The notes beneath the pieces were generated by a model. That model saw only the letters and a program-made list of their open reading frames with translations. It was not told the DNA's origin and did no database searches. Both the position numbers and the translations under genes were made by a program. From Squalus acanthias (taxonomy: Eukaryota), in NCBI GenBank assembly GCA_030390025.1, contig CM059446.1, forward strand, positions 12,710,001 through 12,774,000: a stretch of 64,000 nucleotides of DNA, in the 5' to 3' direction. Positions 1,835 through 64,000 of this stretch are shown piece after piece (positions within the stretch are counted from its first letter, which is position 1; each line of letters begins with the position of its first letter).

Positions 1835-2712
1835 GTAAGTACAGCTGTCAAAATGTAAACTGAAGTGTAAAATATCTTTTAGACAGGTATACAAAATGAT
1901 TAGTTGGTGTTCCTGGATCTGCTCTGGCCTTGTTGATGCATAATCTGGGGACAGGAGTGAAGCTTATGATTTTACCATGGTCCTGCCCTGCCCTGCGGCC
2001 CTGGGACTCCTGTTCCCACTCTGAAGCAGCATCCCAACTGTGGCCCCAACTTATTTGGTGATAGTGGTTCCTCTGTGTGATTCCTGGAGTCTTAATCAAT
2101 GAGAAAGAAGAAAATTGCCAGATGCCCACAGCAGATACTACGCCAGCTAGACTTCAGCTGGTGCCAAGTGAGACAGGGTCCTGGAGGGGTTCTCGCACTA
2201 CATGACTTTAGCGCGTTTCAGAGTCAGATCACTGCCTGATTCTAGAGTTATAGTGGCGCTATTGCATTGATGCACATCTGAAACTGCTATTAATTAGGAC
2301 AAAAGCATAAATGTAACCTTGTGTATGTCTTCTCAGCTTATTGTTCACAATTCATACTTACTCGTAATGGTTTTGTTTCCCATTTTGCTGGTTTTTGGTT
2401 CATTTCTATTAATTGTTTTCCTCTTCTACATTTTTGCTGCTATTATATCTCTTTAGTTTTGCTGGGCCTATTGTTTATTTTTGCCCTATGATCTTATTGT
2501 TGTCTTGTCTGTTGTGCTTTTAAGTACAAATGTTACTGAGGACCACTGAGTTGTAACGTTACGGGGTTGGGAAAATCAGGCATGCACAGAAAGGTCACCC
2601 CTGTGCAGTGGTTCCAAAAACATTGCAAAACGCGTTCTAAATCAGCAACAATAGCGGTGGGAGCAGAGTAAATCACCAGACTGAGACTGGCAAGAGAAGG
2701 AAATTCTGTGAC

Positions 2713-2839
2713 GATAGCAAAATACTGTGGATGCTGGAAATCCGAAATAACAACAGAAAACGCTGGAAAAACTCAGCAGGCCAGGCAACATCCGTGGAGA
2801 GAGAAACAGAGTTAACGTTTCAGGTCGAAACCCTTCGTC
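2713..2839 (-). mobile_element. Short Penelope-like 3' unit with hammerhead motif, 14-bp TSD
   Basis: Perfect direct repeat ggaaattctgtgac at 2699-2712 and 2840-2853; body nearly identical to 63646-63773. Confidence 0.85.
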
Positions 2840-3724
2840 GGAAATTCTGTGACATGGGTTGGAGGGCCAGCGAGAACGCGTGAAGAAATATCGGATTGGT
2901 ATGGCGGGGGGCAGGTTGGTGAATCAATATGCCAATAATGGAGTGAGGAGAATGAAACGAGGGCGATTAGAGCACTGCTGTGACATCCCAAGTAGGCTGT
3001 GCCACTAATTGGCCAGACCAATGCTGGGCAGTCATCATCCTGTCCACACACAGGTGAAGCTTTTTACTTGATGTAGCGATCAAAATCCATACTTTAGCAG
3101 TTTTCAGTTTGGAAGATTTCTGAGTAACCATCCCCAAAAGGAGATGAATGGCCACCTCACCAATACCGTTCATCCAAAATTCTCACAAAACTAGCAGATT
3201 CTCTCCTGGTGTTGATTACGCTAAGTCAGATGGCACACTGTACTGACAGGAGCATTTATACCATGTAATGCACAACATATGACTATCCCATGTAATGCAC
3301 AACATCTTTCTTAATGCGACTACATATAAGCCTTCCTCTTTTCGGATCAGAAAGTCTGATCATTGTCTGTAAACACAGCCTGATGTCAATCAAAGTTTAT
3401 TTTTTTATTTGGCAAGGGTATTTTGCACATTAGAAAGTGCTTGTAAATTACTGCCTCCAAGTCAGGGAAAAAAAACTTGCCTTTTCATTTTTTTAAGCAC
3501 AACATTTGAAATTTAATAGCTGCGCTGAAAACTTTTATTTAGAAAGATAGATTGAAGCCTATACTGCATCTTTAAGAGGCTATGCTACACTGGAAGAACT
3601 ATAGTACACAAGTCATTGCAAGTACAATTATGCAAAATCTAAGGCAATGAATTGAAATGAGAATTCCAGGACTGTAAACTTCTGGTTGAATGTGATAGAG
3701 GGAGCACTGGGCTTGTCCTCACCT

Positions 3725-10135: not shown

Positions 10136-10169
10136 GTTTCCACATGCAGCCAAATACCTGGGACAGGTT

Positions 10170-10485
10170 TTTTTAAATTTGTTTTTATGGGATGTGGGTG
10201 TCGCTGGCAAAGCCAGCATTTATTACCCATCCCTAATTGCCCTCGAGAAGGTGGTGGTGAGCCGCCTTCTTGAACTGCTGCAGTCCATGTGGTGAAGGTA
10301 CTCCCACAGTGCTGTTAGGGAGGGAGTTCCAGGATTTTGACCCAGCGACGATGAAGGATCGGTGATATACTTCTAAGTCAGGATGATGTGTGACTTGGAG
10401 GGGAACTTGGAGGTGGTGGTGTTCCCATGTGTCTGCTGCCCTTGTCCTTCTAGGTGGAAGAGGTCGCTGGTTTGGGAGGTGCTGA
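10170..10485 (-). mobile_element. Non-LTR retrotransposon 3' fragment (same family as 16728-17088)
   Basis: Close reverse complement of about 16765-17088. Confidence 0.8.
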
Positions 10486-16727: not shown

Positions 16728-17088
16728 TGTACAAGATGCACTGCAGCAACTCACCAAGGCTTCTTCGGCAGCACCTCCCAAACCCGCGACCTCTTCCACC
16801 TAGAAGGACAAGGGCAGCAGGCGCATGGGAACACCACCACCTCCAAGTTCCCCTCCAAGTCACACACCATCCTGACTTAGAAGTATATCGCCAATCCTTC
16901 ATCGTCGCTGGGTCAAAATCCTGGAACTCCCTCCCTAACAGCACTGTGGGAGTACCTTCACCACACGGACTGCAGCGGTTCAAGAAGGCGGCTCACCACC
17001 ACCTTCTCGAGGGCAATTAGGGATGGGCAATAAATGCTGGCCTTGTCAGCGACGCCCACATCCCATAAAGAAATGAATTAAAAAAATA
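16728..17088 (+). mobile_element. Non-LTR retrotransposon (CR1/L2 group) 3' fragment
   Basis: SFIVAGSKSWNSLPNSTV...FKKAAHHHL is typical of an ORF2 C-terminus; A-rich end. Confidence 0.8.
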
Positions 17089-19224
17089 AGCACTAACCCC
17101 AGTTTGAGCTCAAGGAAGTGGGCTTAAACTGTATTTTGGGAGTTGCAGTTAACCAGAGTAATACCGGTCCATTCTTGGAGTTCTGCATAGGATGACAATG
17201 ATGCATTCTGGAAGTTGTTGTCCACTACCTGGTTGAGCCTCCATGGATGATGCAAACTCTTGGAATGTAACTCAAGTTTCCCGGATCCAGAGCAGGATTG
17301 AGGTGGGAACAATTCCAGAAATGTCAAAGACAGAAAAGGTAACCCTGTGGGTAAACCACAAGACAGTTAATTAATTCCATTTTCTGTTATGACTTTGTAA
17401 GAATGCACCATAGCCTTTTTAAAAAAAAAAAGCCACCTTTTCCAATGGGCGCAGCTACCTTTGGAACTATAACAGCTTTAAGAAAAACCTACAGCATCCT
17501 GAGGATCCTACAGTTAGGAGAGAAAAGGTGATGGGCAACATCTATTCAGTTGAATATAGGTACCTGGACCAGGCAGGTGGAAGACTGGGAGCTGCTGGAA
17601 CGCATGTGAGTGAATTCGAAAATGGAGGGTCAGGGGAGGCAGAGGCCCTCAGTAAACAAGGGGTGGGTAGGGCTGGCATGGCCTTGGCTTGGCTCATGGG
17701 AAACAGTGAGTGCATGAGGATAAGGCCTGGAAGGAAATGGGGAAGGGGTTGCCGTCTGAAAACGCTGATGGGGGTTGGGGAATAGAAGATGTGCTTGTCG
17801 TGGCTTGGGAGCACTCAGTGAGGCTGAGTTCAGTAGTCTGAGTCCAACCCGCCCCCCCAAGTGCCCTAACCTATGTCATTAAAAGCTTTGCATCTAACAC
17901 GGATCCAACACATCTTGAGTCTTGTGTGTCACAGCTCAGAAGTTGAGATAGGACAAAACAAAATTGTGTAGTTACTATCACTGATATTTAATTCAGTCAC
18001 AGAGCAGTAGTTTTTAAGTGCACCATGCTAATTGGCTCAAATACCACTGCCATTAATTTACCAAAGGTGAAAAAATACTACCTAGCGGCAACTAAGAAAA
18101 AAAAATTTGCTCAAAAAAGGCTACCAATCAGGAACCAGCACAAAACAAACTACTTAACTCACTCAAATTAAAAATACTTTCAGTGGCTACTCTTCCTCAC
18201 ACACCCCAGTACACACAGACTTAAAAGATACATTTATACAAAAATAATTATATGAAAAATTATGATTTTTTTTTTTAAGAAAACCTTGACTTTATCTCTA
18301 AAGTTGTACGTTAAAAAAAGTCTTCAAGACGTTTCCGCCACACATGCCAGCCCGTTTCTCTGGGGCCTGGGCTTGAGTTCTGCTCTGTACTCAAAGCTGG
18401 GCTTTGTCAACTGAGTCTTCGTCCTGGGGCCTTGTAGTTCCTGTTGACGTTCTGTGCGTGTGTGAAAAATCCTTCATCGATTTTGTAATTTTCTTTCCTT
18501 TCCTGTGGAGCTGCAGTATCAAACTCCGCAACCACTCATATCACATGACAAACAAGTGGAACATTTACAAGTATCTCATAAGGAGTGAAAAGCAAAAAAA
18601 AGCAATATGATTCAATTTTTGTCAATATTCTGTACAGCATTTGTTGACAAATTCTCTCTCTGAATGGTACATCACGACAGCTGTCAACTTCACTCCTCAT
18701 CTGCAGAGCTATGAAATCCAGAGTGCAACCAAATAATTCGTGTAGCATGACCACCAGGCAGAACATTTACAAGTAACCACCCAGAGCAAGTAGCAGCGGT
18801 GGGGGGGAATTCACCTACATTTTCTATGATACATCGCTGTCTCACAAAATGCAGTTTAACCTTTATACAGTTTAATCCATTATGTAAAAATTCTGAACTA
18901 AAATGATGATGTTTGCCCTTGGGCAGGAGAGGAATGTGTAGGAGTTGCTTTGATGTTGAGTTTGGACATTGTGCCTCAAGTTGGTCAGTCAGCCAACCAG
19001 ACCTTGCTCATAGCAAGTGGTGACCTGCTGTATTGATCATTTGAGACTCAACTGTAGGAAAGAACATTCCTGGTTCCAGTGCACCGACCACAGCTTCAGC
19101 TAGAACTGTGAATCCACCGTGGTAACTAAGAGGGAGAATAGATATCATGTAAGTAACTGAAAGAGGCAAGGTTTTAGGGAGGGAGAAGGATAAGCAAATG
19201 AATAAAAATACTTACAACTTTAGC

Positions 19225-19625
19225 AGTCTGACTTTGCTGGTAGCATTCTTGCCTCTGAATCAGAAAGTTGTGGGTTCAAGTCCTATTATGGACTTAAGCA
19301 CATACTGTAATATACTCTGACACTTCAAGTACTGCATTGCTGAAGGGACTTTCGTTCAGATGAGACGTCAACCAAGGCTCCATCTGCCTGCTCTGGTACA
19401 CTTAAAAAAAAATCTTGCGGCACTATTCTCCTTGCTGTACTTGACCAACATTGCTTCCTCAACCAGCAGCACCAAAAACAGATTATATTATTGTTTGTGG
19501 GACCTTGCTGTGTGCAAATTGGCCACCATATTTGCTCGTTGCATTTCAAAAAGTAATTCACTGGTTGTGGAGTGATTTGTGACAATTTGAAATCACAATA
19601 AAGCATTATATAAAGACAACTTCTT
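19225..19625 (+). mobile_element. Degraded full-length Deu-domain SINE
   Basis: gcctctgaatcagaaagttgtgggttcaagtcc head and ttgtttgtgggaccttgctgtgtgcaaattgg Deu domain. Confidence 0.8.
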
Positions 19626-19786
19626 CTTCCTTTGCATAGCAAATACTATAAATCCACCATGGGAGGCAAGACAAAACATATATGCTGTATATAATATTGA
19701 TAACTGAGAATAAAGAGTTTTAAGAAGGGAAGATTGAACTTTTACTTGCATCTGAAGCAGGTTTTGCAAAGCGATAAGTGAATAGT

Positions 19787-19886
19787 AATAAAAACAGAAA
19801 ATGCTAGAAATACTCAGCAGGCCAGGCAGCATATGTGGAGAGAGAAACAGAATTAACGTTTCAGGTTGAGGATGACCTTTCGTCAG
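19787..19886 (-). mobile_element. Short Penelope-like 3' unit with hammerhead core, ~13-bp TSD
   Basis: agtgaatagtaat (19777-19789) / agtaaatagtaat (19885-19897); minus strand reads ctgacga-a-aggt-loop-acct-gaaacgtt. Confidence 0.8.
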
Positions 19887-22800
19887 TAAATAGTAATGTC
19901 TGTGAGGCCTCTTTCAGTGTCGGTAAGGTATGCAATATTTTCAACTTGTGTTACTTTGCTGCGTTACAATGATGGATGAACCACTGTTACGTTTAGATTG
20001 AGTGGGGCTGTGATAACCATGAGAAACCACACTCCAGTTCAGCGAGTACCCTTGCACATTGCCATGGGAGATCTCCTTGTATTCTTATATCTTACTGCAG
20101 CCTAAGTGCATTTTTCAAGAGCCAAATGTTGTGATCCATCATGAAAAAGGCTTTATTTTTCTAATTGTGTAACTTGATAAATTTGAATTTCAGTGGTGTT
20201 ATGTATCTGCCAGACACTGCCAAGTATAGCCACTTTAGGACTTAGTAGAATCCTGTTCTTTGTGAAAGGGGTTGAATAATTCAATACACCATTTTTGTAG
20301 AGGCTGAATAATGGGAGAAAGAATAGGTTTGCTTTCTATAAAGTGTCAGGGAAGATCGGTACACAATGGGCAATGCATTAATTTTAAATCATTCTTCCAT
20401 TATACAGTCTGATCTATCAAATTGTAATTATCCTTTAAATAATTCATTAAAGAATGATGCTTATTCTTTAGTAATATTCTACCTGAAGTCATTTTAATAA
20501 AATCTTAAACTTTTACAAAATAATCTGTTCACATGCATTTTTGACTTTTTTTAATGGCTTCTATTTTTTTTTTAAGTGTTTTTCCTTTTTATGGTGTTCG
20601 TGTGCCCAACACTATTCTGCATTTACTGCCTATATTCCTCGTCCATCTCAAATATGTGCTGGCTAAATTTAGGATTTTGCTGTGTGGCAACAACAGATAT
20701 AAACCTGAGTTCCATCCTCCTCGTTATTCCATGAGGAGTATGTCAGTATACCGGTATCAGCTCCACCTAGAGATTATAGGTGTTCAGAACCACGTTGTGA
20801 AATATTCAAGTGGAAAATCAGAAAAATCATTCCAGAGAACAACTTTTATTTTTTTTCTTTAAGAAACTGGTGATTTTACCTGGGAGAGGTTAATGGGATG
20901 AAATTTGCATGCAGAATTTGCTCCCAGTCCAATTCTGTCACTGTATTTTGCATAGTGAGCCTTGCATTTAGTGCAGTTTCGCAAATCAAATCAGAACCCC
21001 CCTCCATGCTAGGCCGCTCCGTGACGGCTGTGCGACCTCGAGTGACTCCATTGGAAACCAGTCCAGGAGCCAATCTGGACCCATATAACCCCGAGAAATT
21101 GTACTACCGTCCGTGACACCTAGCAGGGAGGGAGACACGACTGCAGATCTCTCTGCAGCTGACAAAATTCAAAGACATCAAATTAGATTCTTGTAAGTAC
21201 ATTATTTTTTTTCTCTAAAATGGTGGAGGACCAACAGACAAGGACCTGGACTTTCCTTCCCTTTGTACATTAAATATGAAACTCTGCATTTGAACAAATG
21301 GGTATTTCCTGAATTCCAGACGGTGATTATTCTGAAAATGCAATTTTTTTGGAAAGTATACATTCTGATAAGTATGTTCCCTGAATTTTTGACTTAGTTA
21401 ATCAATGAGGAAGAAAATATAAGGGGGATATGTTTATTTGCATTACATTTTTATTAGTGTAGTGATCTTTGAAAACCATCAGGTGATTTTCAAGTCTTTT
21501 TATCATTGTCATGAATGCTAATAGTGTATGAGCTGAAGTAAATAGAAAGCTTTACTTGGCTTGATGTGTTGAAACGTATATGAAATAAATAGGGGTAAAA
21601 CTACTGCCTTTAAGGTTGACTGATAGTGAAGGGTGGTGTTTTTATCCCTGATAGTGATGCATCAGCTTTGTTTTTTAGAGGAGCTGTAATAGATGACTTT
21701 TCCCTTCAGGCCTGAGACACTTAAAGGCCAAGGGAATGATTGAATAAAGCCTGCTTATTCAGGTTCACAGCTTCTATTCATGTAGGACAATGCTACTTGT
21801 TTGATGAATGCTTTTTAAGTTCAGATTAGAAAAAGAAAGCCTTTGCAAATTGAATGAAGTGAACATTTTGGAACTATATATAAACATTTAGCTGACACAT
21901 CTCCAAGGGGGAGATTTTATAGAAAAGTTCATGGTTTGGAAAGAAAGAACTGAAGCAGCGATGTGGCAAAGGTTCTTGGAAATGTTAAGTCCACGGTTCA
22001 TTTGATGCAAGAAAAGAGCTTAGTTTGTAAAACCAGCCTCTGTGCGTTAAAATAAGCAAAAGTGTGAGTGGAGCTGACTTTGTTTGACTGTGAAAAACAA
22101 TTCCTGAACTCCAAGTTAAAACTAAACCTTAGGAATCAAAATCAAAGTTTGTGCAAACAGAGTAACCACTTGACAGGCGTGAAAGTCAAAGGTCACTGTG
22201 AACCACACAAGCGAAGTTTTGTCCTTCCAGAGTTTGTTTTTCACATGTGGAAAGTTTCTGAAGTTACAGGACCATTTATGTTTTTCAATGCTTAATATGT
22301 GCATAAATTAGATTTTTTATAAATGCAAGTTCTTAATGCGAATTAAATCTTACCAAATTTGAGTATATACAGTAACTAATGTGCAGTGCACATGGAGGAT
22401 AACTCACTTATAAGTGTAAATACAGAATTTGCAACACATGTGAATAGATCGTCTTTGATTAGTTTGCAGTCGATTATTTTGAAATTGGCACTTACTGTTC
22501 TGATACCATGCAAAGCAACACTAACGCACGGACCTATTGACTCTGTTGCACGGTTTTCTACTAGGTAGAATTATTTAATTTTGTCCAAAAGTTTTTTTTT
22601 TCAAGTTTACCTTTGTGATGAAAAAAGAAACGTTGACTTATTTATACCACTGCACAGCTAGTATACTTCAATAGTGAACAGACAGACTAGCAAATTGCTG
22701 CATCAGCATGTAATATCTCCATGGCCTTCCACTACTTGAAAAGTGAACATCCATTGCTGCTGTACTGGAAGGCTTCTACCAAAGCATTGTGCCTCGTCAC

Positions 22801-23611
22801 TGTTTGGGAGAATCCACGAAGCCAAAAGATTTAGTTGAAGGGATTGCATGGAACTAATGAGTGTATCTTTATGATTTCCTAAGCCTCAGAACCAGTTATG
22901 GAATTAGAGCGCATCTGCTATATGTAAGATGAGTACAAACATCTGGCTCCATCCAACTTGAGATTGATGGTGTGGCTATTGAATGGGACAAATCAGTCTC
23001 GCGATTAAAACTCCAGATCCTGTTTTCTGTTGTAGCTCCTAAGCCTACTGTGCAGAAGTTTTATGACTTATAATCTTCCACTCCCTGTTAGTTAACATCA
23101 GGATAAACCAAACATAAATACAGTACTAGTTATAAAATTGATAACTTTCACATATATTTCCTCTCAAAGGAAGCGTTCAATGCTGTAGAAGTAGTAGTTT
23201 TGATTTCTACAGCACAGAGTCCATCTTTATTATCGAATATATCTAAAACACTCTCAAATGTTGCAATTTATTAACCTATTTAAAGCAGAGTTGTATTTTC
23301 AAGTTAACCTGCAAATTGTTACATAATGCACAGTGCTCTGAAAACCAGATTTCCTGATTAAATTGTAAACAAGTTTCCCCTCTCAACCCCTTGAGACTGC
23401 AATTGTGTTTGTTTTCAATTTCCTACTTTCTAGTTCCACTATGATTTGCCGAATAGACCTGACCGCTACCTGATTTATGGTTCAACATCTTCTACTTGCT
23501 TTTTGTTTTTTTACGCCACATCCCCAATAGATCTTATGCACCTTTAACAAGCAAGAGTATGGCAGGTGCATCTTGAGATTTAAGTAAATACTGCTTACTA
23601 AAGAATAAATT

Positions 23612-23861
23612 AACTTGCATTTATAAAATGCTTCATTGCATCTCAAGAAATGTTTCAAAGCACTTCACATAAATTGCTTTGAACTGTTATTATGTAGTTT
23701 CGTGTGGTAGCCATTTTGTGCACAGCGAGGTCTCAAACGGCAAATGAATGAATGACTAATTGATCTGTTTTTGGTGTTATTGATTGAGGGAGGAATGCTG
23801 GTTAGGGCACTGGGAAAACATCCTGCTTTTCCAAAAATAATGCCGTGGAATTTTTTAACAT
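23612..23861 (-). mobile_element. Deu-domain SINE fragment
   Basis: acttgcatttata...gccattttgtgcacagcgaggtctcaaac...ttgagggagga is the reverse complement of the SINE body and tail. Confidence 0.7.
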
Positions 23862-24722
23862 AATATAATATAGTAAATGATGATGATCTCCAAGTGTTCA
23901 CTGGAAAAGACATGAATAACGTGCTTTCCCTAAACAGCGATAATCTAAGTAGAATTAACAAATACTATCTAACTGAGATGAAACTTTCAGATGAAACTTT
24001 TAGATGAAATAAAGGGCTGAAAGCAAATAAATTCCCAGCAATGGATAATATTTCTCCTTAAGTTCTGAGAGACAAGGAACGAGGTCTGTGAGGCATCAAT
24101 AGTAATTATGATGGAGTTGATTAACAGTAAGAAGGCCCAGTAGATTGGAACTAGGCTAATGTGATGCTCATTTTCAAAACGGTTAGCAAAATGCCCAGGA
24201 AACTACAAATCCACCCGTCTTGCATGAATAGTGGGTAAAATAATGGAATAGATTTTCAGGAATAACCTTGTGAATCACCTGCATGAATTACAGAGTAAAC
24301 AACAGCCAACATTGATTCAGACATTGATTTGGTGAAGATCCTGTCTGGCAAAACTCTGCAGTCATAATTATTATTGCTTCTCTGCGTGACACTACAGTGA
24401 CAGCTGGTGCTGACATCCCAGCAGGTTCTGAACTACACCCTTCATTTAGGTGGGTGGCGCAAGAAGGAAGACAAGGCAGCAAAGGAAAATCACTCCAGCA
24501 AAGAGACACGAGGGAAATCTAAGTCACGGGTAACAAAGAGAAAATCAAAGACTGAGAAATAGAGGAATAATCTAAGACGAGAGATATAAAGAGAGAAAAA
24601 CAAAATTGGAGTAACTGAACAGAGGAGTAGGTCACCATCCAGTTCCCACAAATGTAAATTTATTTCTGGATAGTAACTTGTGGGTTGGGCATTTCCCAAG
24701 GCTTGACTGTCTGTGAGGAGTT

Positions 24723-34080: not shown

Positions 34081-34790
34081 GGGCCGGATCTTGCTGGAGC
34101 AGGGCATCTCGCAGCGCGCGCCGTTAGTTAGACCTTTTCCTGCGCCCTTCAGGTCGAAATGCTTTTGCAACATAACTTGCTGGAAGTGTGAGCTGATAAC
34201 GGCATGGTGAGGGCAACGGGACATCCGGGACCGCAATGAATATCTCCTTAACCAATGAAATTTAAGGATTGAGGAACAAAGGAATGGCAGAGAAGGAGGG
34301 TGAAATAGAGTCAATTTCAGGTACAGAAAGAAATAGAGAGGGAAAGAAAAATTGGATTGAGAGAAAAGAAACAGAAAGGAAAAGTAAGAAAAGATTTGAC
34401 ATATTCGAAATCTCTAACAATAATTGACTAAATGCAAGACTGAGAGTGAACATTTTAAATTGTTCTCTTTCTGGGCCAGAGAGGTTGAACGGTTGCATTA
34501 ACAATTATCACGTTGTTAATAAAGGTTCTTTTGCTGTTAACTTCCAGCCCTAACTTTCTGCGGCAAGTTTAATGAGCAATTAATGAGCAAATCCAGCAAG
34601 TTCTTAGAGGCTCATGGCGCGATGCCATTTGTGCAAAGCAAACAGCGGAGAGGCGTAAATCGACCAGCAAGTTCTGGAGATTCACCGCTCGCGGCGTATC
34701 TCTTAATCCCCTGAACTTGCTGGCCAATTTGCGCATTAATAACGGTGTGCGACGTTAACACGCCGTTATTTTTCCAGCAAGATCCGGCCC
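34081..34790. mobile_element. 710-bp MITE with perfect 17-bp TIRs and 3-bp TSD (PIF/Harbinger-like)
   Basis: aat|gggccggatcttgctgg ... ccagcaagatccggccc|aat. Confidence 0.9.
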
Positions 34791-38740: not shown

Positions 38741-40289
38741 TTGACCCTCTCCAGAGCACCCTACAGGAATGATGTTACATTAAGGGAGGAAGAAGATACT
38801 TCTGATGCTCTTGCTGTGAAGGAATTCATCTGCATGGTGTGTTGGAGAAATACCCAATATGAGGATGGTCTTGGCTGGAACTCACTGCTGCCTTAAGTAA
38901 TACCTCACATGTGGTAGAAGTTCAGGATTAAGCTTTTCTGTGAACAACCAGACATTCATCTAATCATTAGACTGGGTTTTGCAGGACGGCTGGAATTCTT
39001 TGAAGTCCAGTGCTCAACAATTTCTGATCTTCATTAACAGTAGCTTATATGTCCTGCTTGCGTTGCAACATGGAAAGTTTGAGATGCCAATTGTTGTGCT
39101 TGTACCCAGATGTGACTGATTCTGCACATGCAGCAAGTGTTTTGATGGGTAGCACTTTGTAGAATAGGCTTATATCATTACAGTCGGAGACTCCTTTGGT
39201 GATGGCCTTTCTTTTTGTATACGTCTGTAAAGACATCCATGATGCCAGTTAGATGATAGCCTCTCCCCGAGGACAGGCAACAGCCTTACACCACAACCTT
39301 TTTTGCATTTATCCCAACCTTCCTATGGATTCGACTCTCTTCCATTCAATGCCGTTTTGAGGTCCAATGTTTTTCTCCTGAAAGATGGGTCAACTAAGAG
39401 ACATGCCCTTTCCCTCTGTTGCGTGCACTACTGGAAGAGTGCCTCATCTAGCTTTGAATTTTTAAAAAATGTTCACAGCTTTCTCACAACCAGTGCATCC
39501 TTCAAGACAATTTTACTGTAACACTCCTCTATTTTGCCACCTTCCCAGTTCTAGTCTGGCATGGTGGCCACTCTGAAACCAAAATAAGCTATGCCACCTT
39601 CTGTCATTCGCCTTCTTATTCTGTCTAAAAGAGCATTACTTTTATTTCTCTATTGTTCTTGCCACCTGTGAGAGGAGTAGACAAGGGTGATGAAGGTGTG
39701 AAAACTGAAGATTGTGAGACTGACAACCTGTTGCCCTGGTTTTACAGTAGAAACCTGCTGAGTATTTGCAGCATCTTCTGCTTTCATTTCAGATTTCAGC
39801 ATTGACAGGCTCTTCTTTTTCTTTTTAATTGTATTGCTCGTTGTTTTTCACAGTTCAAGTGTCAATAGCATGAAAATTTCCTTTAACTTAAAAACAAAAG
39901 TAATATACAGTCAAATACATAGAGAATTACATTATTGAGTTGTTTTAAGTTGCATTCTTCTATTATAAGAAATGAGCAACTTTTGTGAGTGTTCAATAAA
40001 CATGGATTCATTAAGTGCTGTTTGCATTCATTGATCTCAATGTTTAAAAGTAGTTTAGGTCAATCAAAAATCCCTTGCAGTGGTTAAAGAACAATATATA
40101 CTTCAAGTGATCGCGAAGTAATTATGTGATCGCAATTATCATAAAATTAGGCACATAAGGTGGCAATCTTGGCGTGAAAGTTGTGGGTGTGGTTATTTTG
40201 CGTGACAATTATTACAGTTCTACCTAAACTCAGCCAAAACTAAATCAAACCGGATTGAGATTTTTTTCCTTATTTTTGTTGCACTTGCT

Positions 40290-59367: not shown

Positions 59368-59551
59368 GAAAATGTTGACCCTCACTCACACTATGACCGT
59401 CATGCAACTCGCTCACCAATTCCCAATTACAATACAAGTGAAGAACGGCTGTCTTTGGAACTACATGAATGGCACCGGTACACACCAAAACGCTCACATA
59501 GGCACAGTGCTGGCTATGCATCAACGATGTATAATGGTCCAGCATCAGCAG
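59368..59551 (+). CDS. DLG5: DLG5 coding exon, ENVDPHSHYDRHATRSPIPNYNTSEERLSLELHEWHRYTPKRSHRHSAGYASTMYNGPASA(G)
   Basis: cacag|gaa ... g|gttggt; 184 nt, phase 0-1; LSLELHEW...SHRHS resembles human LSPELQEW...SSRHS; the acceptor is less certain than the donor. Confidence 0.75.
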
Positions 59552-60039
59552 GTTGGTTCCCAATCAGAAACCCTTGGGATCTCAGGTGCTATATTAAGAA
59601 CCATACTTACACCCCTTTGTATTTATTTCTTTTTGCCATTTTGAACCCCAGTCCTGATCCATTTCTTTCTTGAAATGTCATTAAAAATGTGTAAACAACA
59701 CTTTTGGATAGAGAATTAAAGATAGAGTTATTGTTGATCAATATTTTAAATTATTTACTTTACCAAATCTAAATTTTGTTGGCCAACCAAAGCTTCAATT
59801 AAATTAGTGGATATCTTGTTTGTACATAATTACATACAGAAGAAAAATGTTCGAGCTTCCAGTTAAGGAATGTGCATAACAAATTAAATATCACTCGATA
59901 GAATAGGTCTCTAGTATATCATGCAGACATACATGCTATGACTATAGTAGTTTATATGTAGTCGGTTGAAACTGTCAATTTCAATGCAGAGACTAAACAA
60001 AGGACTTCCAAATATTAATGTCTGAAGTTATAGACTCAA

Positions 60040-60542
60040 TACAGATGCATTTTGGAAAGAAGAATGAGGAGAGACAATGTAAACTGAATGCTACAATTTT
60101 AAAGAAGGTGCTGAAATAGAGAGACCTGGTGGGTGGTTCACCGACACAAATCTTTGAAGGTGACAGGACACGTTGATAAGGCGGTTAAAAATGCATGCGG
60201 CATCTTCAGCTTTATAAATAGAGGCATGAGAGTACAAAAGCAAAGAAGTTAAGCTAAGAGTTTATAAATCACTGGTTAGGTCTCAGCTGGAGTATTGTGT
60301 CCAATTCTGGGCACCACACTTTAGTAAGGATGTCGAGGCCTTGGCTAGCATGCAGAGGAGATTTACCAGAATGGTACCAGGGATGAGGGACTTCTGTTAG
60401 GTGGAGAGACTAGAGAAGCTGGGATTGTTCTCCTCAGAGCAGGGAAGATTAAGGAGGGATTTGATAGAGGTGTTCAAAATCATGAAGAGTTTTGATAAAG
60501 TAAATAAGGCGAAAAAACTGTTTCCACTGGCAGGAGGGTCAA
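60040..60542 (+). mobile_element. CR1 fragment
   Basis: ctggagtattgtgtccaattctgggcacc; LEKLGLFSSEQGRLRRDLIEVFKIM. Confidence 0.88.
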
Positions 60543-60764
60543 GTATTAAGTTTTCATTGGATGCCTCTCTGTACCATAGCTGCATTTTGTAAATTGACAA
60601 ATGACTTTACAGGATGCTTTAACAGAACAGTTAGCTTTTTCTGAGCAATGCGCACTTTTTCTGCTTCAATTTTGTCACCTACATTTCATTGAAGAATATA
60701 TAAATGAAGGTGTTTGTTTAGTTGATGAATTTAGTAAATTTAATTTCTACCTTTTTATACACAG

Positions 60765-60918
60765 GCAGTACACAGAGAAGCTTTGTGCCTTGTCCAGCGG
60801 TGACGGCGGTTCTGCGGAACCCAAATGTTCCTTTTTTCACTGTTCGCAGTCGCATGGTCCACAGTGCCAACTATCCTTCCATGGCTAGTCAGATGTGCTA
60901 TCCACATCCACAACATAG
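60765..60918 (+). CDS. DLG5: DLG5 coding exon, (G)STQRSFVPCPAVTAVLRNPNVPFFTVRSRMVHSANYPSMASQMCYPHPQH
   Basis: cacag|gc ... ag|gtatca; 154 nt, phase 1-2; resembles human GTVPRSLTPSTTVSSILRNPIYTVRSHRV. Confidence 0.88.
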
Positions 60919-62915
60919 GTATCAATCACCCAATAGATTTGGTTAGCAATCCATCTTCCCTGCTGTGAGCACTCTTGTGCACTTAGACAACTTTTAAAAC
61001 TAAGAGTTAGCAAAAATGTTCACTTGCAACATCTAATGTGCATATATTCTACATGCATACTTCTACACAGATTAAAAAATAAAATAAAACTGTTAATGGG
61101 CCTATGCAGCAATGCAAATAGCTGAGCTAGACTAGATAAGGATAAGTGTATTTTAATACTCCTGATTATAGCACTAGATCTTAGGTTTGATTCAACGTAA
61201 GTGGCTTAAAACAGGTATTTTAAAACCATTATTATGTTCTAATAATATACAATTGAGAAATTTATTACACAAACTTGTGCATGGAGTCAGAAGAGATAGG
61301 AGAGGTGATGAATGAATACTTTTCGTCAGTGTTCACCGAGGAGAGGGGCCATCTTCTTGAGGATGAGAGTGTGATAAAGGTGGATAGGCTGGAGGTGGTA
61401 GATGTTCTGAGGGAAGATGTTTTAGCAATTTTGAAGAACCTGAGGGTCGATAAGTCCCCTGGGCCAGATGGGATATATCCTAGGATTCTTTGGGAGGCAA
61501 GGGAGGAGATTGCAGAGCCTCTGGCTTTGATCTTTGGGTCCTCACTGTCCACGGGGATGGTGCCAGAGGACTGGAGAGTGGCGAATGTTGTTCCTCTCTT
61601 CAAGAAAGGAAATAGGAATGACCCTGGTAATTATAGGCCGGTTAGTCTTACTTCGGTGGTTGGTAAGATAATGGAAAAGGTCCTGAGGGATAGGATTTAT
61701 GACCATTTGGAAAGGGGTAACTTAATCAGGGATAGTCAACACGGATTCGTGAAGGGTAAGTCTTGCCTAACAAATTTGATTGAATTCTTTGAGGAGGTAA
61801 CTAAGTGTGTAGATGAAGGTAGAGCAGTTGATGTCGTATACATGGATTTTAGTAAGGCGTTTGATAAGGTTCCCCATGGTCGTCTCATGAAGAAAGTAAG
61901 GAGTTGTGGGATAGAGGGAAATTTGGCCGATTGGATAAGTAACTGGCTATCTCATAGAAGGCAGAGGGTGGTGGTGGATGGAACATTTTCGGACTGGAGA
62001 CCAGTTACCAGCGGTGTGCCACAGGGGTCGGTGCTGGGTCCTCTGCTGTTTGTGATTTTTATCAATGACTTGGAGGAGGGGACTGAAGGGTGGATCAGTA
62101 AATTTGCTGATGACACCAAGATTGGTGGAGTAGTGGATGAGGTGGAGGGCAGTTGTAGGCTGCAAAGAGACATTGATAGGATGCAGAGCTGGGCCGAAAA
62201 ATGGCAGATGGAATTTAACCCTGATAAGTGCGAGGTGATTCATTTTGGTAGGGCAAATGTGAATAAGGATTACAGGGTCAACGGCAGGGTTCTGAGGAAC
62301 GTGGAGGAGCAGAGGGATCTGGGGGTTCATATCCACAGATCTCTGAAGGTTGCCACTCAAGTGGATAGAGCAGTAAAGAAGGCCTATGGTGTGTTGGCGT
62401 TTATTAACAGAGGGTTTGAGTTTAAGAACCGTGAGGTTATGCTGCAACTGTACAGGACCTTGGTGAGACCACATTTGGAATATTGTGTGCAGTTCTGGTC
62501 ACCTCACTATAGGAAGGACGTGGAAGCATTGGAAAGAGTGCAAAGGAGATTTACCAGGATGCTGCCTGGTTTGGGGGGGAGGTCTTATGAGGAAAGATTG
62601 AGGGAGTTGGGGCTTTTCTCTTTAGAGCGGAGGAGGATGAGAGGCGACTTAATAGAGGTTTATAAGATGATGAGGGGGATAGATAGAGTGGATGTTCAGA
62701 GACTATTTCCTCGGGTAGAGGCAGCTGTTACAAGGGGGCATAGCTATAAGGTGCATGGGGGGAGATATAGAAGGGATGTCCGAGGTAGATTCTTTACTCA
62801 GAGAGTGGTTGGGGTGTGGAATGGACTGCCTGCTGTGATAGTGGAGTCGGAAATAACAACAGAAAACGCTGGAAAAACTCAGCAGGCCAGGCAGCATCCG
62901 TGGAGAGAGAAAGAG

Positions 62916-62952
62916 AGTTGACGTTTCAGGTCGATGACCTTTCATCAGAACT
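62916..62952 (-). ncRNA. Minimal hammerhead motif (mirror copy in the left arm)
   Basis: Exact reverse complement of 63640-63676. Confidence 0.72.
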
Positions 62953-63229
62953 GGGAAGAGCTGGAAATCAAATAGATTTAAGGCCAGGGTAAAGCTGGGA
63001 AAAGGGGGAGGGGATAAAGGAACAAAGGAGGAGATGAAGAGACATTAAGAGACATTAAGAGATATGCAAGGCTAGAGGTGGTGTTAATGTGACAGATTAA
63101 GGCTGAATGAAGTGTGAAATCCACTGGCAGAATGAAGGACAGCTGCCAGCTTCTAGGAGGAAAAAAAAAGGTGGGGGGGACAAATAAAAGGGTGGATAAA
63201 ATAAAATATAAATGTGATTGGAGCTGAGG

Positions 63230-63310
63230 TTATGATCTAAAATTGTTGAACTCGATATTGAGTCCAGAGGGCTGTAGCGTGCCTAAACGAAAGATGAGGT
63301 GCTGTTCCTC
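63230..63310 (-). pseudogene. Remnant of a Penelope-type GIY-YIG endonuclease C-terminus, EEQHLIFRLGTLQPSGLNIEFNNFRS*
   Basis: Hand translation; fits the recalled PLE ORF-end motif E..I..L.T..P.GLN; mirrored on + at 63312-63371. Confidence 0.78.
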
Positions 63311-63639
63311 TCGTTTAGGCACGCTACAGCCCTCTGGACTCAATATCGAGTTCAACAATTTTAGATCATAACCTCAGCTCCAATCACATTTATATTTTAT
63401 TTTATCCACCCTTTTATTTGTCCCCCCCACCTTTTTTTTTTCCTCCTAGAAGCTGGCAGCTGTCCTTCATTCTGCCAGTGGATTTCACACTTCATTCAGC
63501 CTTAATCTGTCACATTAACACCACCTCTAGCCTTGCATGTCTCTTAATGTCTCTTCATCTCCTCCTTTGTTCCTTTATCCCCTCCCCCTTTTCCCAGCTT
63601 TACCCTGGCCTTAAATCTATTTGATTTCCAGCTCTTCCC

Positions 63640-63676
63640 AGTTCTGATGAAAGGTCATCGACCTGAAACGTCAACT
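63640..63676 (+). ncRNA. Minimal type I hammerhead ribozyme motif
   Basis: AGUU CUGAUGA A AGGUC AUC GACCU GAAAC GUC AACU: stem I AGUU/AACU, intact core, 5-bp stem II, loopless palindromic ACGU stem III, GUC triplet. Confidence 0.75.
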
Positions 63677-64000
63677 CTCTTTCTCTCTCCACGGATGCTG
63701 CCTGGCCTGCTGAGTTTTTCCAGCGTTTTCTGTTGTTATTTCGGATTTCCAGCATCTGCAGTATTTTGCTATCGTAATAGTGGAGTCGGACACTTTAGGA
63801 ACTTTCAAGCGGTTATTGGATAAGCACATGGAGCACACCAGAGTGACAGGGAGTGTGATAGCTTGATCTTGGTCTCGGACAATGCTCGGCACAACATTGA
63901 GGGCCAAAGGGCCTGTACTGTGCTGTACTGTTCTATGTTCTATGTTCTTCTGACAGTAAAAACACGTTCGAATCAAATTACAGAGTTTTCTATTCTTAGT

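What the first reader, a model, noticed from the sequence alone, without database searches (positions are those of the whole stretch)
62838..63790. About 900-bp palindrome: Penelope-like 3' end inserted head-to-head with its own inverted copy
Seen: arms 62850-63290 (441 bp) and 63311-63742 (432 bp) differ only by a 10-bp duplication, one adjacent substitution and one homopolymer base that I could find. The 20-bp spacer continues the element on the minus strand (EEQHLIF). The right arm has a ~30-nt extra tail, and a 14-bp TSD (17 bp with one mismatch) flanks the whole. Each arm ends a GIY-YIG-like ORF. Knowledge: Penelope-like elements form inverted pseudo-LTRs with one copy bearing a short tail. 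Inference: a single insertion event with fold-back or template switch, preserved almost pristine, with a clean TSD.
Basis: partly seen in the sequence, partly recalled or inferred. Interest (0 to 1): 0.75.

Follow-up and report, generated by a model that had tools for sequence, protein, structure and literature searches.

The report
Head-to-head Penelope retroelement insertion
Two short mirror-image ends of a very common Penelope-like jumping gene sit head to head inside another jumping gene in a shark- or ray-type genome; this layout is already described for these elements, but this copy is fresh enough for its joints to hint at how it was made.

Summary
The palindrome is real: arms 62850-63290 and 63311-63742, no substitutions, one 10-nt indel, one poly-A base. 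It is the 5'-truncated 3' end of a high-copy Penelope-like element (probably Neptune clade) of a cartilaginous fish. The 26-residue peptide matches the C-terminus of RT + GIY-YIG proteins from sharks and rays. The unit interrupts a young CR1-type LINE whose frame is restored when the insert and one 14-17-bp TSD copy are removed. Corrections: the '10-bp duplication plus substitution' is one deletion in the right arm, and no GIY-YIG motif is present. A one-step fold-back cannot explain it, because each arm has bases the other lacks (20-nt spacer left, 31-34-nt tail right). Two priming events, one per target nick, fit best (inferred). Inverted 5'-truncated copies, one-sided tails and TSDs are described PLE hallmarks, and this scan noted such palindromes before in this genome and another. 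Read support for the central joint was not obtained. Ordinary; interest low.

The parts
61257..62851 (+). Host: 5'-truncated CR1-type LINE, ORF2 (reverse transcriptase) part upstream of the insertion
   Evidence: Open frame from 61257; RVT_1 E 1.7e-37; the frame runs 527 codons from 61341 without a stop across the computed empty site. CR1 label recalled, not tested by a tree.
62835..62851 (+). Left TSD copy (exact 14 bp at 62838-62851; 17 bp with one mismatch)
   Evidence: Uninterrupted paralogous LINE contigs read through this sequence once and continue as at 63791 (loose ends at 62851 in X1, X4, X18).
62850..63290 (-). Left arm: tail-less 3' end of the PLE (ORF end plus 3' UTR/pLTR), sense on minus strand; its first 2 nt are shared with the TSD end
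62920..62948 (-). Minimal type-I hammerhead ribozyme motif in the left arm (CUGAUGA core, helix II, GAAAC-GUC, helix I AGUU/AACU)
   Evidence: Motif scan; helix II hairpin predicted; no hammerhead family among the 13 Rfam matches; activity not tested
63054..63063 (.). 10 nt present in the left arm and in the family, deleted in the right arm, inside a short AAGAGACATT-type repeat
63230..63310 (-). Last 26 codons and stop of the PLE ORF (C-terminus of the GIY-YIG endonuclease domain)
   Evidence: tblastn of RT+GIY-YIG proteins, E 9.5e-9 to 2.7e-6; alignment
63291..63310 (-). Central 20-nt spacer, colinear with the left arm; on the plus strand it ends in a 4-bp hairpin GAGG (63296-63299) / CCTC (63307-63310)
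   Evidence: z = -2.06; 16 of 200 shuffles fold as well, so weak
63311..63742 (+). Right arm: 3' end of the same PLE, sense on plus strand, 20 nt shorter at its 5' end; last 19 codons and stop at 63312-63371
63644..63672 (+). Minimal hammerhead motif in the right arm, identical to the left one
63743..63773 (+). One-sided PLE tail (31 nt, or 34 nt to 63776)
   Evidence: the same tail ends the solo copy at 2711-2843
63774..63790 (+). Right TSD copy (exact 14 bp at 63777-63790)
63791..63949 (+). Host LINE continued: last codons of ORF2, 3' UTR and short simple-repeat end

Best explanation
One recent retrotransposition of an endonuclease-bearing Penelope-like element (probably Neptune clade) into a young CR1-type LINE left two 5'-truncated 3' ends head to head within one TSD (identity and single event about 0.9). 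Most likely mechanism (about 0.55-0.6, inferred): the GIY-YIG enzyme nicks both strands 14-17 bp apart and both 3'-OH ends prime reverse transcription of the element RNA. The top-strand nick at 62851 starts at the inner, tail-less site and gives the left cDNA, about 460 nt. The bottom-strand nick starts at the outer site and gives the tail. The left cDNA's 3' end then pairs through the short CCTC/GAGG match, either on itself (hairpin) or on the second cDNA, with a slip of 5 nt, and repair fills in the rest. Shown: anatomy, family identity, TSD, both end types in the family. Inferred: order of events, two primings, role of the hairpin.
For: One TSD around the whole unit and none at the centre (longest shared stretch 3-5 nt). 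Host frame restored and uninterrupted paralogues seen. Peptide matches the C-terminus of RT + CX4CX2C linker + GIY-YIG proteins named from sharks and rays; 9 of 15 proteins scanned hit Pfam GIY-YIG at E<0.1, 1 of 15 above the curated cut-off. Each arm has unique bases: spacer left, tail right. Both end types occur as solo insertions in the window: tailed at 2711-2843 with a 14-bp TSD; tail-less at 19787-19886 with a 9-bp TSD. Both arms share a minority base at 62920, where 92-94% of summed contig depth in X1, X2 and X4 has the other base. Frangieh et al. 2024 (PMC11167929) report both-strand cleavage and extension and two RT start sites that bracket the tail, for a Poseidon element in vitro.
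Against: No read or contig across the central joint or the two outer joints was shown: laid contigs only, on a one-arm reference, listed no such joint, and hid 4 joints and 962 loose ends. The family sequence upstream of the spacer was not seen, so the microhomology at the centre is unknown, and the 4-bp hairpin needs a 5-nt slip and is weak. The shared base at 62920 marks a sub-lineage and could also reflect gene conversion between arms. The 9-bp TSD of the tail-less solo copy is AT-rich; 64 of 20000 random draws reached 9 nt. The in vitro data are from a different clade, and that paper's main text does not discuss inverted insertions. No full-length copy of this family was recovered (searches found nothing).
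Confidence: 0.6

Rival explanations
1. The RNA template was already a palindrome: a transcript of a source locus with an inverted copy, or one made by self-priming on an antisense template as proposed for rotifer PLEs. It was copied in one pass from the tailed end.
For: Arkhipova et al. 2013 (PMC3846280) interpret head-to-head junction palindromes as self-priming on an antisense template (passage read). It needs only one priming event at the target. The arms share a minority base.
Against: The left end stops exactly at the family's tail-less terminus, where a solo copy (19787-19886) and a cluster of contig loose ends at 62850-62851 also stop; a one-pass copy gives no reason for this unless the source had that end. 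No high-depth joint at 63310/63290 was listed, but the reference ended there, so this is weak.
Confidence: 0.22
2. Simple fold-back: one cDNA snaps back and copies itself, and the one-sided tail arises later from endonuclease-mediated resolution of the intermediate.
For: 4-bp hairpin at the end of the spacer; no substitutions between arms; Craig et al. 2021 (PMC8557442) ascribe the tail to EN-mediated resolution (passage read).
Against: The spacer is colinear with the tail-less arm, so the folding strand began without the tail and cannot have templated it. Unless the first cDNA was trimmed by 31-34 nt afterwards, a second RNA-templated step is needed.
Confidence: 0.12
3. Two independent insertions, or a later DNA-repair fold-back of an existing copy.
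For: The family is very abundant (summed contig depth of order 10^5-10^6 over the arm), so neighbours by chance are possible. The arms differ by two indels.
Against: No second TSD at the centre; the flanks are colinear with no deletion or inverted flank; the arms have near-equal length, 0 substitutions and a shared minority base.
Confidence: 0.03
4. Assembly artefact from fold-back chimeric long reads.
For: Perfect palindromes are a known long-read artefact (own knowledge); no spanning read was seen; the best runs hold 0.80-0.81 of the sampled words of 59500-64000, not all.
Against: After the second arm the sequence goes on into tail, TSD and the host LINE in the original direction, not into the inverted left flank. 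The arms differ by a 10-nt deletion. The tail matches an independent copy.
Confidence: 0.03

Closest known systems
Canonical EN+ Penelope-like elements (Penelope/Poseidon, Neptune, Nematis), as summarised by Craig et al. 2021, PMC8557442 (passages read)
   Same: 5' truncation, an adjacent inverted 5'-truncated copy, a 30-40-bp tail at one end only, hammerhead motif in the terminal repeat; relatives have a C-terminal GIY-YIG with the CX2-5CxxC linker of Neptune/Nematis.
   Different: Minimal form: only two 3' ends, no internal ORF body and no direct pLTR pair; target is a LINE coding region, not a microsatellite, so the TSD is readable.
Adineta vaga Pen2a/Pen2/Pen3a insertions, Arkhipova et al. 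2013, PMC3846280 (passages read)
   Same: Inverted pLTR, 31-bp tail on one of the inverted copies, 8-10-bp TSD around the whole, head-to-head junctions, insertion into another retroelement.
   Different: TSD here is 14-17 bp; the junction is a 20-nt unpaired spacer with a 4-bp hairpin rather than an 18-38-bp palindrome; the truncation point is inside the ORF end.
PAc (Poseidon of Anolis carolinensis), Frangieh et al. 2024, PMC11167929 (parts 1-2 of 4 of the text read; supplements not read)
   Same: Two alternative 3' ends that bracket a tail; hammerhead motif shortly upstream of them.
   Different: Different clade; that work shows both-strand priming in vitro, but its main text does not treat head-to-head products.
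LINE-1 twin priming (5' inversions), as described in PMC11702581 (passages read)
   Same: Two target ends each prime reverse transcription; TSDs of 12-18 bp are kept; microhomology at the second priming site.
   Different: In L1 the two cDNAs cover adjacent, almost non-overlapping parts of the RNA; here they cover the same 430 nt, giving a palindrome.

Membership tests
EN+ Penelope-like elements | Single ORF with PLE-type RT and C-terminal GIY-YIG endonuclease | tested here: inconclusive
   Only the last 26 codons are in the window. They match the C-terminus of partial RT + GIY-YIG proteins (E 9.5e-9). The family's own full ORF was not recovered.
EN+ Penelope-like elements | Direct or inverted terminal repeats formed from 5'-truncated copies | tested here: met
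   Inverted 441/432-nt copies.
EN+ Penelope-like elements | 30-40-bp tail at one end only | tested here: met
   31-34-nt tail on the right arm; tailed and tail-less solo copies in the window.
EN+ Penelope-like elements | Minimal hammerhead motif in the terminal repeat | tested here: met
   Core, helix II and helix I found in both arms; core also in 2 solo copies; 4 motif hits in the window, all in this family. Motif definition from PMC4209133 (passages). Position 10.1-11.1 is A-U here rather than the usual G-C. Rfam gave no hammerhead hit. Cleavage not tested.
EN+ Penelope-like elements | Short TSD around the whole unit | tested here: met
   14-17 bp, host frame restored.
Neptune clade | CX2-5CxxC linker between RT and EN, plus two Cys inside the GIY-YIG motif | tested here: inconclusive
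   Present in the closest relatives, for example P0018 and P0012, not in the window; the linker is shared with Nematis.
Neptune clade | RT phylogeny | not tested
   No RT of this family was obtained and no tree was built.
MITE or fold-back DNA transposon | Terminal inverted repeats with symmetric ends and no retroelement 3' end | tested here: not met
   Ends are asymmetric and each arm is a retroelement ORF end plus UTR that also occurs as solo copies.
microRNA precursors (Rfam hairpin hits) | Score at or above the family gathering threshold | tested here: not met
   All 13 matches are below gathering score, best 58.6 versus 88 bits; they reflect the hairpin shape.

The most novel reading that the evidence does not exclude
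The crossed asymmetry (spacer on the tail-less arm, tail on the shorter arm) is the genomic footprint of 'double twin priming': a PLE enzyme dimer primes from both target nicks at the two RT start sites and copies the same RNA end twice. If this polarity holds across the many young palindromes in this genome, it would explain how PLE head-to-head repeats and one-sided tails form, which Craig et al. 2021 call undefined. I did not find this model in the library searched (the one paper listed was seen as a listing only), but the older subscription papers on PLE structure were not available.
Probability: 0.45. Interest if true: 0.45.

Novelty: new member of a known kind. Interest (0 to 1): 0.2.

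Why it matters
As a structure it adds nothing new: head-to-head PLE insertions with a one-sided tail are described. Its value is as a clean data point. A non-repetitive target, an exact TSD and zero substitutions make every joint readable, and a high-copy young family offers many more such cases. A genome-wide count of which arm carries the spacer and which the tail could test how PLE inverted repeats form. If transcribed, the unit would give about 430 bp of double-stranded RNA, a possible small-RNA source, as reported for inverted Penelope copies in flies (PMC3681739, passage read); expression was not tested here.

Tried and rejected
No genome is held for this window, so other palindromes could not be counted. 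Pfam gave 0 families for the 26- and 32-residue peptides and for 6 of 6 members of alignment A2. A search for long relatives with P0011 residues 168-274 found none among 39 candidates. DNA patterns found 0 matches in viral contigs and metagenome contigs; the protein-pattern scan found 183 candidates and confirmed 0. The two best hits (P0002, P0003; multi-stretch, matching partly the chimeric start of the query) were not followed up; 8 of the 10 hits were fetched. Laying contigs of 4 of 24 listed runs on the left flank, left arm and spacer showed no joint at the centre, which is no evidence of absence, and those runs may include the source sample. Runs X6-X20, with 0.41-0.45 of the words, were not used except X18. 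Rfam microRNA hits rejected as hairpin artefacts. Whole-3'-end RNA folds were no better than shuffles (z -0.28 to 0.74), so no claim of special stability is made. A second TSD at the centre was sought and not found. Literature searches; no paper on this shark family was found (listings only). The preprint 10.64898/2026.07.22.740005 (passages) does not discuss palindromes. Supplements of PMC11167929 (Figs S1-S2) were not read and may show inverted insertions.

Full report
Observation. The palindrome is present at the stated place. A gapped alignment gives arms 62850-63290 and 63311-63742 with no substitution, one 10-nt indel and one poly-A base. The spacer 63291-63310 continues the element on the minus strand. 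The right arm continues for 31-34 nt (63743-63773/6) beyond the point mirrored by the left arm. A 14-bp exact duplication (16 of 17 with extension) flanks the unit; 0 of 5000 random draws reached 14 nt.

Host. The flanks are one 5'-truncated LINE ORF2 (RVT_1, E 1.7e-37; the CR1 label is recalled). With the insert and one TSD copy removed in silico, the frame runs 527 codons without a stop. Contigs of uninterrupted paralogues continue from 62851 straight into the sequence at 63791 in 3 of the 4 runs laid. The host is very young: a low-depth contig in X18 differs from it at 1 of 202 positions. The PLE insertion is younger still.

Identity of the arms. The window holds only 26 codons of the element's ORF, and Pfam does not see them. 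A search of cluster representatives gave 10 hits; the 7 looked up are gene models from whale shark, rays and a skate that have taken in the same peptide. A profile of these pieces found 120 proteins among 7501 candidates. [quoted passage not shown] Of 15 scanned, 9 hit Pfam GIY-YIG at E<0.1 and 1 passed the curated cut-off. Three of them, run by tblastn on the window, hit the left arm and spacer at E 9.5e-9 to 2.7e-6 and the right arm at 1.8e-4 to 0.012, and nothing else below E 1.8. By the clade features in PMC8557442 (passages) this points to Neptune or Nematis; Neptune is the likelier in a vertebrate (preprint passages). No tree was built. Each arm carries a minimal hammerhead motif (62920-62948 minus; 63644-63672 plus) of the type described in PMC4209133 (passages); Rfam did not report it and cleavage was not tested.

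Family context. Three shorter relatives lie in the window. The copy at 2711-2843 ends with the same tail and has a 14-bp TSD. The copy at 19787-19886 ends near the tail-less site and has a 9-bp TSD, which 64 of 20000 random draws matched. In runs of organism A from two studies, 17,000-24,000 contigs per run were laid on the 661-nt reference of LINE flank plus arm, so the family is very abundant (depth is not a copy number). A 1203-nt contig in X18 matches the left arm and spacer with one substitution and one one-base gap, so the 10 nt are the family state and the right arm carries a deletion. At 62920 both arms have G, while 92-94% of summed depth in X1, X2 and X4 has A, so both arms come from one sub-lineage or were homogenised.

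Read support. The runs are kept as contigs only, the reference covered one arm, and the table was cut. No record crossing the central joint or the outer joints was listed. This neither supports nor refutes the inversion. An artefact is unlikely on anatomy: the sequence after the second arm is tail, TSD and host LINE in the original direction, and the arms differ by a deletion.

Mechanism. Each arm has sequence that the other lacks. The strand that could fold back at the centre is the plus strand, primed at the left nick, because the spacer is colinear with the left arm and ends in a 4-bp hairpin (weak, and the product needs a 5-nt slip). That strand started at the tail-less site, so it cannot have templated the tail. 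The simplest account is two RNA-templated primings, one at each nick, at the two start sites that bracket the tail, followed by joining of the left cDNA end to itself or to the second cDNA. This agrees with the in vitro behaviour of the anole Poseidon protein, which extends both strands and starts at two sites (PMC11167929, parts 1-2 of 4 read), and resembles L1 twin priming (PMC11702581, passages). It is inference, about 0.55-0.6. Rivals: a template that was already palindromic (0.22; compare the antisense self-priming idea in PMC3846280), simple fold-back with later trimming (0.12), two events (0.03; no central TSD), artefact (0.03). The TSD boundary is ambiguous: this insertion and the solo copy both have GT after the tail's GCTATC, which may be element, target or both.

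Comparison and novelty. Inverted 5'-truncated copies, a 30-40-bp one-sided tail, hammerheads and short TSDs are the described architecture of EN+ PLEs (PMC8557442; PMC3846280). Earlier notes of this scan, which I did not check, report a 3.7-kb palindrome and three more double copies in this genome and a 4.2-kb one in another genome. I did not find the two-priming explanation in the library, but older subscription papers and the supplements of PMC11167929 were not seen.

Verdict. Real, well preserved, a new member of a known kind. Interest 0.2. The most novel reading, that the spacer/tail polarity records double priming and can be tested genome-wide, has probability about 0.45 and would deserve about 0.45.

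Noticed in passing
window 2699-2853 (minus): Solo 134-nt copy of the same PLE 3' end, truncated inside the hammerhead core, with the tail and an exact 14-bp TSD (2699-2712, 2840-2853).
   Followed up: yes
window 19781-19897 (minus): Older solo tail-less copy (86% identity) with a whole hammerhead core and a 9-bp TSD; a more decayed 50-nt piece lies at 39754-39802 (plus).
   Followed up: partly
window 10169-10484 and 16769-17086: Two 318-nt copies of another dispersed repeat, 95% identical, in opposite orientation 6.3 kb apart; not identified.
   Followed up: no
window 34653-34734: Weak 83-nt self-complementary, GC-richer stretch (75% identity to its own reverse complement); not identified.
   Followed up: no
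proteins P0005, P0008, P0009, P0012: Annotated host proteins of rays and skates (VKORC1L1, ATP synthase subunit c, neuromedin-U receptor, a divergent kinase) carry the PLE endonuclease C-terminus; probably gene-model errors or exonised PLE pieces.
   Followed up: no
joints 63226 to 62966 and 62939 to 62849: Backward joints inside the element seen in both studies (X1, X4): other loci with tandem or inverted arrangements of this family; the kind of joint was not shown.
   Followed up: no
window 62954 (loose ends): 114-142 contigs per run leave the element just upstream of the hammerhead with a shared different sequence: a second family that shares only the terminal 100 nt.
   Followed up: no
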